Below are positions 40,320 to 43,600 of a stretch of 64,000 nt of DNA, in pieces (positions within the stretch are counted from its first letter, which is position 1; each line of letters begins with the position of its first letter). The position numbers and the translations under genes are program-made. This stretch comes from Squalus acanthias (lineage: Eukaryota), in NCBI GenBank assembly GCA_030390025.1, contig CM059442.1, positions 32,674,001-32,738,000 of the forward strand. The letters are read 5' to 3'. The notes under the pieces are model-generated. The model was not told the origin of the DNA. It did no database searches and worked only from the letters and a program-made list of their open reading frames with translations.

Positions 40320-40509
40320 AAGGTGTTCAGAAAAGATAGGGAAGGAGAAAAGGGAGGTGGGGTGGCAGTATTGATTAGGGAAGACATTGTAGTGTTGGAA
40401 AGAGAGGATGTCCTTGAGGGGGCATGGACAGAATTCATTTGGTTAGAGTTGAGAAGCAAAAAGGGTATGACCACGCTATTGGGGTATTCTATAGGCCTCC
40501 AAATAGTGA

Positions 40510-40602
40510 CTTCACCTGACGAAGGAGCAGCGCTCCGAAAGCTTGTGATTTCAAATAAAACTGTTGGACTATAACCTGGTGTTGTGCGACTTCTCACATT
40601 TG
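40510..40602 (+). mobile_element. 93-bp hammerhead-containing mini-insertion (ribozyme motif 40512-40548)
   Basis: Flanked by a 12-bp direct repeat tccaaatagtga (40498-40509, 40603-40614); contains tcac-CTGACGA-a-ggagc(agc)gctcc-GAAA-gc-tt-gtga and AATAAA; homologous to 31890-31990. Confidence 0.85.
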
Positions 40603-43600
40603 TCCAAATAGTGAGAGAGAGAGATAGAGGACCAAATCTGCAGGGAAATCAGAGATTTGCGAGAACTATAGAGTGGTGATATTGGGGGACTTTAATTACC
40701 CAAATATTGATGGGATAATGTTAGAGTAAAGGGAAAGGAGCAGGAGGAATTTCTGAAATGTGTTCAGGAGAACTTTCTTGACCAGTATGTTCTCGGCCCA
40801 ATTAGGAAGGAGGCATTGCTGGATCTGGTGCTGGGGAATGAGGTGGGCCAAGTGGACCAAGTATCTGTGGGAGAACACTTGGGTAAGAGTGATCATCGTA
40901 TCATAAGGTTTAGATTAGTAATGGAGAAGAGCAAGGAACAATCTAAAGTAGAACTTCTAAATTGGAGGAGGGCTAACTTCAATGGGATGAGAGGGGATCT
41001 AGTCAGGGTAAAATGGAACCAAAGATTGACAGGAAAAACTGTAACGGAACAATGGGTAATCTTTAAGGAGGAGATGTTTCAGGTACAGGCTCGGTACATT
41101 CCAACAAGAAGGAAAGGTAGGGGAACCAAAGCCAGGGCGCCTTGGATGACGAGGGAGATAGAGAATATGATGAAACAAAAAAAAGAGGGTGTATGATGCA
41201 TGTCAGATGAATTCTTCAAGTGAGAACCAGGCCAAATAAGTTGAGAGGGGAAGTGAAGAGGAAAATAAGATTGGCAAAGAGAGAATATGAGAATAGAATG
41301 GCAGTTAACATAAAAGGGAACCCAAAAATCTTCTACCGGCATGTAAATAGTAAGCGGGTAGTCAGAGGCGGGGTGGGGCCTATTAGTGACAAAGAAGGTA
41401 ATATATGCTTAGAGGTGCAGGGCAAGGCTAGAATAGTTCATGAGTACTTTGTATCAGTGTTTACTAAGGAAGAGAATGCTGACAAAATATCGGTAGAAGC
41501 GGAGATGGTAGAGGTAATGGATGGGGTGAAAATTGATAGGCAGGATATACTGGAAAGGCTGGATATGCTTAAGAGTGAATAAGTCGCCTGGTCCAGATGG
41601 CTTGCATCCCAGGTTGCTAAGGGAAGTAGGGGTGGAGATAGTGGAAGGGCTTGCCATAATCTTCCAATCTTCACTAGATACGGGGGAGGTGCCAGAGGAT
41701 TAGAAAGTGGCAAATGTGACACCCTTGTTCAAGAAAGGGTGTAAGGACAATCCTAGTAACTACAGGCTGGTCAGTTTAACATCAGTGGTGGGTAAGGTTT
41801 TAGAAACAATAATCAGGGAAAAAATTAACAGGCACTTGGAGAGGTTTAAGTTAATTAAGGAGAGCCAGCACGGATTGTAAAAGGCAGATCATGTTTGACT
41901 AATCTAATTGAATTTTTTGATGAAGTAACAGAGAAGGTTGATGAAAGGAATGCAATGGATGTTGTCTATATGGATTTTAAGAAAGCGTTTGACGAAGTAC
42001 CACATAAAAGGCTAGTTAACAAAATTGTGGCTCATGGAATAAGAGGATCAGTGTCAGCTTGGATAAGAAATTGGCTTAAGGACAGAAAACAGCGAGTCGT
42101 GGTAAATGGTTGTTTTTCAGACTGGAGGATGGTAGACAGTGGTGTTCCCCAAGGGTCAGTGCTAGGACCACTGCTTTTTTTGATATATATAAATGACTTG
42201 GATATTGGAACACAGAGTAAAATTTCAGAATTTGCCAATGATACCAAACTTGGAGCTGTGGCAAACAGTGAGGAGGATACCAATCGACTGCAACAGGACA
42301 TAGATAGGCTAGCAGAATGGGCAGACAAGTGGTAGATGGAATTTAATACAGAGAAGTGTGAAGTGATGCATTTTGGTAGAAGGGATAGGGAGAGGCAATA
42401 TAGACTTAATGGCACAGTTCTAAAGAGTGTGCAGGGACAGAGGGACCTGGGGGTTCATGTGCATAGATCTTTGAAGGTGGCAGGACATATTGAGAGAGTA
42501 GTTAGCAAAGCATATGGGATCTTGGGCTTCATAAATAGAGTTATTAAGTACAAAAGCAGGGATGTTATGCTGAGCCTTTATAAAGCTCTGGTTAGGCCAC
42601 AACTAGAGTATTGCATCCAGTTCTGGTCACCACATTTTAGGAAGGATGTGAAGGTCCTTGAGAGGGTGCAGAGGAGATTTACCAGAATGATTCCAGTGAT
42701 GAGGGATTTTAGCTACAAGGTTAGGTTGGAGACGCTGGGGTTGTTCTCCTTGGAGCAAAGGAGGTTGAGGAGAGATTTGACAGAGGTGTACAAGATTAAG
42801 ACGGGTTTGGATAAGGCAGACAGAGAAAGGCTGTTCCCATTAGCTGATGGTACAAGGACTAGGGGACTGAGATTTAAGGTTTTGGACAAAAAATACAGGG
42901 GGAATGTGAGGAAGATCTTTTTTATGCAGCGAGTTGTAATGACCTGGAAAACTCTGCCAACGAGGGTGGTGGAAGCAGAGACGATCAATGATTTCAAAAG
43001 GAAATTGGATAGGCACTTGAGGGAAATAAACTTGCAGGGCTACAGGGATAGAGTGGGGGAATGGGACTGACTGGATTGCTCTACAGAAAGCCAGCATGGA
43101 TTCGGATAGGCCGAATGGCCTCCTTCTGTGCCATAATGACTCTATGACTCTATGACATACCATTTGCCTTCCCAATCGCTTGCCGTACCTGCATGTTAAC
43201 TTTCTGTGATTCATGTACAAGGACACCCGGCCCCTCTGAATGCAAACATTTCCCAGTCTCTCACCAATCAAAAAATATTCTGCTTTTTTGTTTTTCTTAC
43301 CAAAGTGGATAACTTCACACTTCCCCACATTGTATTCCATTTGCCATGTTCTTGCCCACTCAGTCAACCTGTCTATATCTTTCAGCAGCCTCTTTGCGTC
43401 CTCCTCACAGCTTACTTTCCCACCTAACTTTGTATCATCAGCAAACTTGGATACATTACACTCAGTCCCTTTATCTAAGTCATAAATATAGATTGTAAAT
43501 AGCTGCGGCCCAAGCACTGATCCTTGCGGTACCCCGCTAGTTACAGCCAACCCGAAAAAGACCCATTTATTCCTACTCTCTGTTTTCTGTCCATTGACCA

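What the first reader, a model, noticed from the sequence alone, without database searches (positions are those of the whole stretch)
40498..40614. 93-bp mobile unit that is essentially a hammerhead ribozyme plus a polyA signal
Seen: a 93-nt insert with a 12-bp flanking duplication inside CR1 ORF2, holding only a minimal hammerhead (CTGACGA, stem II, GAAA, AGCT palindrome, stem I), AATAAA and a short tail; relatives occur at 31716-32018 and 57934-57990. Known: Penelope-like elements carry minimal type-I hammerheads in their pLTRs, and non-autonomous retrozymes exist in other taxa. Inference: this may be a vertebrate retrozyme-like mini-element mobilised by PLE reverse transcriptase, or an extreme 5' truncation of a PLE.
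Basis: partly seen in the sequence, partly recalled or inferred. Interest (0 to 1): 0.7.

Follow-up and report, generated by a model that had tools for sequence, protein, structure and literature searches.

The report
Penelope run-off stub carrying a hammerhead
This 93-base insert is a near-exact piece of the end repeat of a very abundant Penelope-type jumping gene in a shark-like genome, and is likely a dead-end copy of the first ~95 letters of that element's RNA, not a self-spreading ribozyme element; the shared start point of such stubs likely marks where the element's RNA begins.

Summary
Observation confirmed: 93 nt between a true 12-bp target duplication in a decayed CR1, with a minimal hammerhead motif and AATAAA. 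It is not an independent retrozyme. It matches 92/93 the pLTR of an intact 891-aa RT + GIY-YIG Penelope-like element (Neptune-type linker) in the same genome; one 31-mer of it has 67,282 exact matches. No tandem arrays of the short unit (1 and 0 junctions) and no private haplotypes were found. It is not random truncation either: 25 of 95 unbiased copies start within -4..+5 of one base (1.2 expected), 30 nt behind a conserved TATA-like box; in the young subfamily a non-native G precedes that base (1,900 vs 680 A/T; not seen in older subfamilies). 3' ends fall at two sites, as for the anole element in vitro. Most such stubs are head-to-head pairs (one end of each type in 58 of 59); this one is a rarer single arm. 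Best reading: reverse transcription starts inside the RNA's 5' leader and runs off the capped end of an uncut RNA. Cleavage and the start site are untested. The scan noted the same pattern earlier in other shark genomes.

The parts
40498..40509 (+). Left copy of the 12-bp target-site duplication; its last base (A, 40509) is also the predicted first base of the element's RNA, and the G at 40508 is target-derived, so a cap G cannot be shown in this copy
40509..40606 (+). Single short arm of a Neptune-type Penelope-like element: predicted transcription start to first 3'-end cluster (98 nt incl. microhomologies; 93 nt between the duplications)
   Evidence: 92/93 identical to the 3' pLTR of intact copy L091; 5' end position 0, 3' end +98
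40512..40548 (+). Minimal type I hammerhead motif (stem I 4 bp, stem II 5 bp, palindromic AGCT instead of stem III); predicted cut after 40544; activity untested
40554..40559 (+). AATAAA hexamer of the pLTR; poly(A)-signal function untested
   Evidence: near-invariant among subfamilies
40603..40614 (+). Right copy of the target-site duplication; first 4 nt (TCCA) also match the element's tail
31718..32021 (+). Longer, 5'-truncated arm of an older subfamily of the same PLE (3' UTR, promoter-like region, hammerhead, full tail); no exact duplication of 8 nt or more found
57934..57993 (-). 60-nt tail-only fragment of the same PLE, no hammerhead

Best explanation
The insert is a 93-nt piece of the terminal repeat of an abundant Neptune-type Penelope-like retrotransposon, likely made when the element's reverse transcriptase started inside the 5' leader of an uncut element RNA and ran off its capped first base, leaving a stub that is predicted to be a dead end. 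Shown: identity to the pLTR of intact elements, the 12-bp duplication typical of the family, two 3'-end clusters, a sharp 5' edge 30 nt behind a conserved TATA-like box, an excess of non-native G at that edge in the young subfamily, and no pile-up at the hammerhead cut. Inferred: the edge is the transcription start and the G is the copied cap; the GIY-YIG endonuclease cuts AT-rich DNA with a ~12-nt stagger; both strands prime on the same RNA source, one at each internal start site (about +90 and about +128, just before the ORF's ATG), and the two cDNAs are joined head to head. When the start sites in the 5' repeat are used the product is limited by the RNA's 5' end (short arms); when those in the 3' repeat are used it is a long arm with random 5' truncation. 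In this copy only the strand primed at the first site survived and was joined to the target through 1-2 nt of microhomology. It lacks the TATA-like box and a second hammerhead, so it would neither be transcribed from its own upstream promoter nor be released as a circle.
For: Intact parent: L091 has inverted arm + pLTR + 891-aa ORF + pLTR + tail, RVT_1 E=1e-8, GIY-YIG E=3e-4, just under Pfam's cut-off; insert 98.9% identical to its 3' pLTR. Copy numbers 15,960 and 67,282 exact 31-mer matches, controls 0. 5' ends in the unbiased set (95 arms from the first 100 places): 24 at +6..+57, 25 at -4..+5, 7 at -5..-10, 1 at -11..-40, 38 longer; 1.2 of 71 expected in the 10-nt window from the long-arm truncation rate. 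TATA-like box at -28..-32 from a YY|A in 71 of 82 ORF-linked arms. Base before the edge, genome-wide: G 1,900, A/T 680, native C 9,468; one base further in, G 286 vs C/T 1,309. In 19 of 30 inspected G junctions the G is not explained by an A-microhomology with the partner arm (my reading of the printout). In older subfamilies with 6 more nt before the hammerhead, partner-arm 5' ends start at -8..0 relative to the TATA-defined base, 21 of 49 within -4..+4: the edge follows the TATA box, not the ribozyme. 3' ends: 124 at +88..+99, 107 at +124..+150, 2 between, of 233. One end of each class in 58 of 59 two-arm insertions; both arms share a diagnostic base in 42 of 46 (42% expected). Duplications 11-13 bp in 91 of 136 arms, 72% AT vs 57% in the window. 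In vitro precedent: PMC11167929 (two internal start sites, both strands cut and extended, uncut RNA used). Cap-G precedent for L1/SVA: PMC4859970 passages.
Against: No RNA data on 5' ends: only assembled contigs were served, so the start site and cap are inferred from DNA junctions. In the older subfamilies the G excess is absent overall (G 28, A 25, T 31 of 84 junctions; G 16 of 35 among unpaired ones), and among solo copies with extra letters between duplication and element G is only 6 of 14. Part of the G excess (11 of 30) coincides with microhomology hot spots. In this copy the G belongs to the target. Drosophila Penelope has a TATA-less internal promoter (PMC2377424 passages), so a stub without the TATA box need not be silent. 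The data cannot tell the 5' leader of full-length mRNA from short transcripts of promoter-bearing truncated copies. Samples come mostly from the first 15 Mb of contig C1.
Confidence: 0.7

Rival explanations
1. Ordinary random 5' truncation of a 3'-end copy, with the position fixed by microhomology to the target or to the partner arm.
For: 82 long arms form a continuum from 42 to 3,236 nt (median ~380). This copy has 1-2 nt microhomology at its 5' junction. Several junction hot spots are microhomologies. For this single copy this origin cannot be excluded.
Against: 25 observed vs 1.2 expected ends in the 10-nt window, and only 1 of 95 in the 30 nt from -11 to -40; solo copies with unrelated targets start at the same base.
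Confidence: 0.12
2. Short RNAs from promoter-bearing truncated pLTR copies are mobilised in trans, SINE-like; the stubs are then products of a non-autonomous short RNA rather than of the full mRNA's leader.
For: About 40% of sampled arms (38 of 95) keep the TATA-like box without necessarily keeping the ORF; short arms outnumber ORF-bearing ones; trans mobilisation by pLTRs is reported in rotifers (PMC3846280 passages).
Against: Short arms have no haplotypes of their own (nearest long arm 0.79 differences, nearest short arm 0.90); the inserted stubs themselves lose the TATA box, so there is no self-renewing short lineage unless the promoter is internal.
Confidence: 0.11
3. The reverse transcriptase stalls or dissociates at the 5' edge of the hammerhead fold, or a splice acceptor lies there as in Drosophila Penelope.
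For: In the young subfamily the edge is 3 nt before stem I; in D. virilis an intron end maps to the 5' end of helix I (PMC4209133).
Against: In older subfamilies the edge lies 6 nt further upstream with the TATA box; no spliced 5' exon precedes the edge in inspected junctions; a stall does not explain the G.
Confidence: 0.05
4. An independent vertebrate retrozyme-like mini-element that replicates through hammerhead-cut, circular RNA.
For: Hammerhead stems are conserved with compensatory changes across subfamilies; vertebrate retrozymes related to pLTRs exist, also in one cartilaginous fish (bioRxiv 10.64898/2026.07.22.740005).
Against: 1 and 0 head-to-tail junctions genome-wide; copies keep sequence on both sides of the cut site and only 3 of 460 arms begin there; minimal, single motif; 93-mer not self-paired; no private haplotypes.
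Confidence: 0.02

Closest known systems
Endonuclease-positive Penelope-like elements, Neptune/Nematis type (PMC8557442; passages read)
   Same: Single ORF with RT and C-terminal GIY-YIG, CX4CxxC linker, pLTRs with hammerhead, inverted 5' copy, 30-40-bp tail on one end, frequent 5' truncation.
   Different: The passages seen do not describe a dominant class of stubs limited by the transcription start, nor the strict pairing of one tailed and one tailless arm in numbers.
PAc, Poseidon element of Anolis carolinensis (PMC11167929; parts 1-2 of 4 read; supplements not seen)
   Same: Two internal RT start sites delimiting the tail, AT-rich targets, both strands cut and extended, hammerhead at the pLTR-ORF junction not needed for insertion.
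   Different: Different clade; there the ORF starts inside the hammerhead, here ~90 nt behind it; genomic 5' ends and cap G were not analysed in the parts read.
Adineta vaga Pen2a_Av pLTR (PMC3846280; passages)
   Same: TATATATA box plus TCACT initiator in the pLTR, inverted pLTR, tail, 8-10-bp duplication.
   Different: Low copy; promoter only predicted; inverted junctions explained there by self-priming.
Minimal hammerheads of metazoan PLEs (PMC4209133; parts 1-2 of 4 read)
   Same: No helix III, palindromic loop, extra base before stem II, G-C first pair, thousands of single dispersed motifs ascribed to truncated PLEs, also opposite-strand pairs.
   Different: Sharks not named in the parts read; stem II here 5 bp.
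Non-LTR retrozymes (PMC7229834 passages; bioRxiv 10.64898/2026.07.22.740005 parts 1-3 of 5)
   Same: Short, non-coding, type I hammerhead, pLTR-related.
   Different: Retrozymes are tandem repeats with a hammerhead per unit (canonical in PMC7229834) that yield circular RNA; this unit is dispersed, single or inverted, with a minimal motif.

Membership tests
EN+ Penelope-like element (parent of the insert) | Single ORF with RT and C-terminal GIY-YIG endonuclease | tested here: met
   L091: 891 aa, RVT_1 E=1.1e-8; GIY-YIG E=2.8e-4, 21.6 bits vs cut-off 22.6; homologues carry PF00078 and PF01541
EN+ Penelope-like element (parent of the insert) | pLTRs with hammerhead, inverted 5' copy, one-sided 30-40-bp tail | tested here: met
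   L091 layout; two 3'-end clusters ~38 nt apart
EN+ Penelope-like element (parent of the insert) | Insert is sequence of that element | tested here: met
   92/93 identity to L091 3' pLTR; 82-nt core identical in 8 long arms
Neptune clade | CX2-5CxxC motif in the RT-EN linker (shared with Nematis, absent in Penelope/Poseidon) | tested here: met
   PCHGNLCKTC in L091 and L093 translations; definition
Neptune clade | RT phylogeny groups with Neptune rather than Nematis | not tested
   No named reference set fetched; Nematis not formally excluded
Minimal type I hammerhead | Core boxes, stems I and II, palindromic loop 3 | tested here: met
   29 variants: 95.4% of cells paired, 13 compensatory cells in 2 pairs, slid controls 23-48% (related sequences inflate the shuffle test); no Rfam hit
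Minimal type I hammerhead | Self-cleavage (dimer- or protein-assisted) | not testable with these tools
   No assay; no excess of insertions starting at the cut (3 of 460)
Non-LTR retrozyme | Head-to-tail tandem units each with a hammerhead | tested here: not met
   1 and 0 exact junction matches with gaps up to 12 nt; longer-period arrays not scanned genome-wide
Non-LTR retrozyme | Own lineage distinct from autonomous elements | tested here: not met
   80 short vs 139 long arms share haplotypes
Non-LTR retrozyme | Circular monomer RNA | not testable with these tools
   Only contigs available

The most novel reading that the evidence does not exclude
The commonest product of this vertebrate Penelope-like element is a cap-terminated, strong-stop-like cDNA: a protein dimer primes both strands of a 12-nt staggered cut on one uncut RNA, at two start sites in the 5' leader, and tens of thousands of genomic stubs record the transcription start, the cap, both priming sites and the silence of the hammerhead during integration.
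Probability: 0.5. Interest if true: 0.55.

Novelty: new member of a known kind. Interest (0 to 1): 0.3.

Why it matters
The insert itself is an ordinary dead stub, and the retrozyme idea does not hold. The family statistics matter more: how Penelope-like elements integrate, why they carry an inverted arm and a one-sided tail, and what the hammerhead does are open questions with a single in vitro system. A young family with intact copies and thousands of stubs gives exact, testable in vivo predictions: the start base, cap copying, one-of-each pairing of the two priming sites, a 12-nt stagger, and use of uncut RNA.

Tried and rejected
DNA search of the genome with the 97-mer found nothing because common words are skipped; patterns were used instead. 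Rfam: no hammerhead model matched at E<=1 on the window or E<=10 on the insert. PDB sequence search with the parent ORF: 0 hits. RNA: no RNA holder on record and no raw reads; four runs laid were contigs, which cannot show starts, ends or level; not used as evidence. One search used a mis-registered structure string; one search is the valid count. A dimer fold of two motifs paired stem II arms, not the AGCU palindromes, and is uninformative. Hammerhead-cut origin of stubs: 3 of 460 arms start at the cut, all three within a microhomology. Cap-G test in older subfamilies was negative overall. Long-long and long-short pairs are under-sampled because many loci are only 3 kb. Literature searches showed no paper on shark PLE stubs or a cap G in PLEs; the library is limited and Repbase/Dfam entries and supplements were not visible.

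Full report
Observation. The window holds a 12-bp direct repeat at 40498-40509 and 40603-40614 with 93 nt between. Other copies of the host LINE have the 12-mer once (3 close copies), so this is a real insertion with target duplication. The insert carries a minimal type I hammerhead motif (40512-40548) and AATAAA (40554-40559). The motif folds as expected (z -2.1) but the 93-mer as a whole does not (z -0.08); Rfam does not detect it. Across 29 variants the two stems are 95.4% paired with 13 compensatory cells. The two cited relatives exist: a ~300-nt copy of an older subfamily and a 60-nt tail fragment without hammerhead.

Parent element. The genome (3.7 Gb) has 15,960 exact matches to a 31-mer over the hammerhead and 67,282 to a 31-mer behind it, controls 0. 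Longer copies lead upstream into a GIY-YIG C-terminus; a protein search gave 150 scored matches, some in open frames of up to 920 codons. Locus L091 is a complete element: inverted arm, pLTR, 891-aa ORF, pLTR, tail, duplication, with RT, a CX4CxxC linker and GIY-YIG (E=3e-4, just below cut-off), i.e. Neptune/Nematis type by PMC8557442. The closest named proteins are from sharks (94% and 86%). The 93-mer is 92/93 identical to its 3' pLTR. The tail ends at the ORF's ATG, about 127 nt behind the predicted start.

Not a retrozyme. Retrozymes are defined by tandem units with a hammerhead each. Head-to-tail junctions of the short unit were found once and zero times genome-wide (exact patterns, gaps up to 12 nt). 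Short arms are as close to long arms as to each other (0.79 vs 0.90 differences; 80 short, 139 long), and this copy's 82-nt core is identical in 8 long and 10 other short arms. Copies keep both sides of the predicted cut; 3 of 460 begin at it.

Not random truncation. Long arms form a continuum (82 arms, 42-3,236 nt). But in the set anchored only behind the hammerhead (95 arms recovered from the 100 places listed) 24 end at +6..+57, 25 at -4..+5, 7 at -5..-10, 1 at -11..-40 and 38 further up; the long-arm rate predicts 1.2 of 71 in the 10-nt window. Position 0 is an A in an initiator-like context (label recalled) 28-32 nt behind a TATA-like box, found in 71 of 82 ORF-linked arms of diverged subfamilies; 11 missed the strict rule. 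A similar TATA + TCACT pair was noted in a rotifer pLTR. Genome-wide the base before position 0 is native C 9,468, G 1,900, A/T 680 (13 of 30 inspected A/T cases are a native T variant), whereas one base further in G is 286 against C/T 1,309. Untemplated G at full-length 5' ends is the accepted sign of a copied cap for L1 and SVA. Against: 11 of 30 G junctions coincide with microhomology hot spots; in older subfamilies G is 28 of 84 junctions; and in this copy the G is part of the target. For: in those older subfamilies, where 6 more bases separate position 0 from the hammerhead, partner arms begin at -8..0 and 21 of 49 lie within -4..+4, so the edge follows the promoter-like motif rather than the ribozyme.

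3' ends and architecture. Of 233 arms, 124 end at +88..+99, 107 at +124..+150 and 2 between; this copy belongs to the first group. 136 are short arms in head-to-head pairs, 82 long, 15 single or unassigned; duplications are 11-13 bp in 91 of the 136, none found in 17, and AT-rich (72% vs 57%). One end of each class occurs in 58 of 59 pairs, and both arms share a diagnostic base in 42 of 46 (42% expected). Single short arms are 7 of 95 in the unbiased set, 5 starting at -4..0, roughly a few thousand genome-wide; 33 of 55 single copies in enriched samples show their own duplication.

Mechanism. The anole element cuts and extends both strands, starts reverse transcription at two internal sites that delimit the tail, and uses uncut RNA (PMC11167929). 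Applying this (inference): the same start sites exist in the RNA's 5' leader and in its 3' repeat. Priming in the leader yields cDNA that runs off the capped end after about 90 or 128 nt; two such cDNAs from opposite strands give the hairpin insertions, and loss of one gives single arms like this one. Priming in the 3' repeat gives long, randomly truncated arms and, rarely, full elements. The stub lacks the TATA-like box and a second hammerhead and is likely dead, though an internal promoter as in Drosophila Penelope is not excluded. RNA evidence could not be obtained.

Novelty. The parts (pLTR, minimal hammerhead, tail, inverted arm, dispersed single motifs) are published. I found no paper on start-limited stubs or cap G in PLEs (searches; limited library, supplements not seen). 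My reading was noted before I saw that earlier scan reports reached the same one in other shark genomes; these are unchecked AI notes and not independent support. Verdict: ordinary stub of a new member of a known kind, with a useful mechanistic lead; interest 0.3.

Noticed in passing
L215 (G000:C1:43392645-43395679), junction at ~1500: Two arms joined where both reach position 0 and each carries an extra base (C on one, G on the other), as expected for two cap-terminated cDNAs joined blunt.
   Followed up: no
L257 (G000:C1:50862477-50865510): Head-to-tail junction in which ORF sequence about 200 nt behind the start is joined directly to position 0 of a second arm; a rare direct tandem.
   Followed up: no
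L271 (G000:C2:68638749-68641780): The only tail-to-hammerhead direct junction found genome-wide; a partial dimer of the short unit preceded by inverted RT sequence.
   Followed up: partly
L101, L138, L177, L183 hammerheads: A recurring subfamily has CCCGA instead of CCTGA in the catalytic core (U4 to C), which would be expected to impair cleavage, yet it occurs next to a long ORF.
   Followed up: no
L029 (G000:C1:7559880-7562910): Two separate hairpin insertions 1.2 kb apart share the same junction, one arm starting exactly at the predicted hammerhead cut; also explicable by microhomology.
   Followed up: partly
L003, L005, L009, L010, L016 and others: Many insertions sit in the RT region of CR1-like LINEs, several at nearly the same AT-rich site; target preference not tested against background.
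   Followed up: no
window 14022-14693 and 51774-52433; 22656-22871 and 23411-23628: Inverted, 87-96% identical repeat pairs; the second pair, about 540 nt apart, looks like terminal inverted repeats of a DNA transposon.
   Followed up: no
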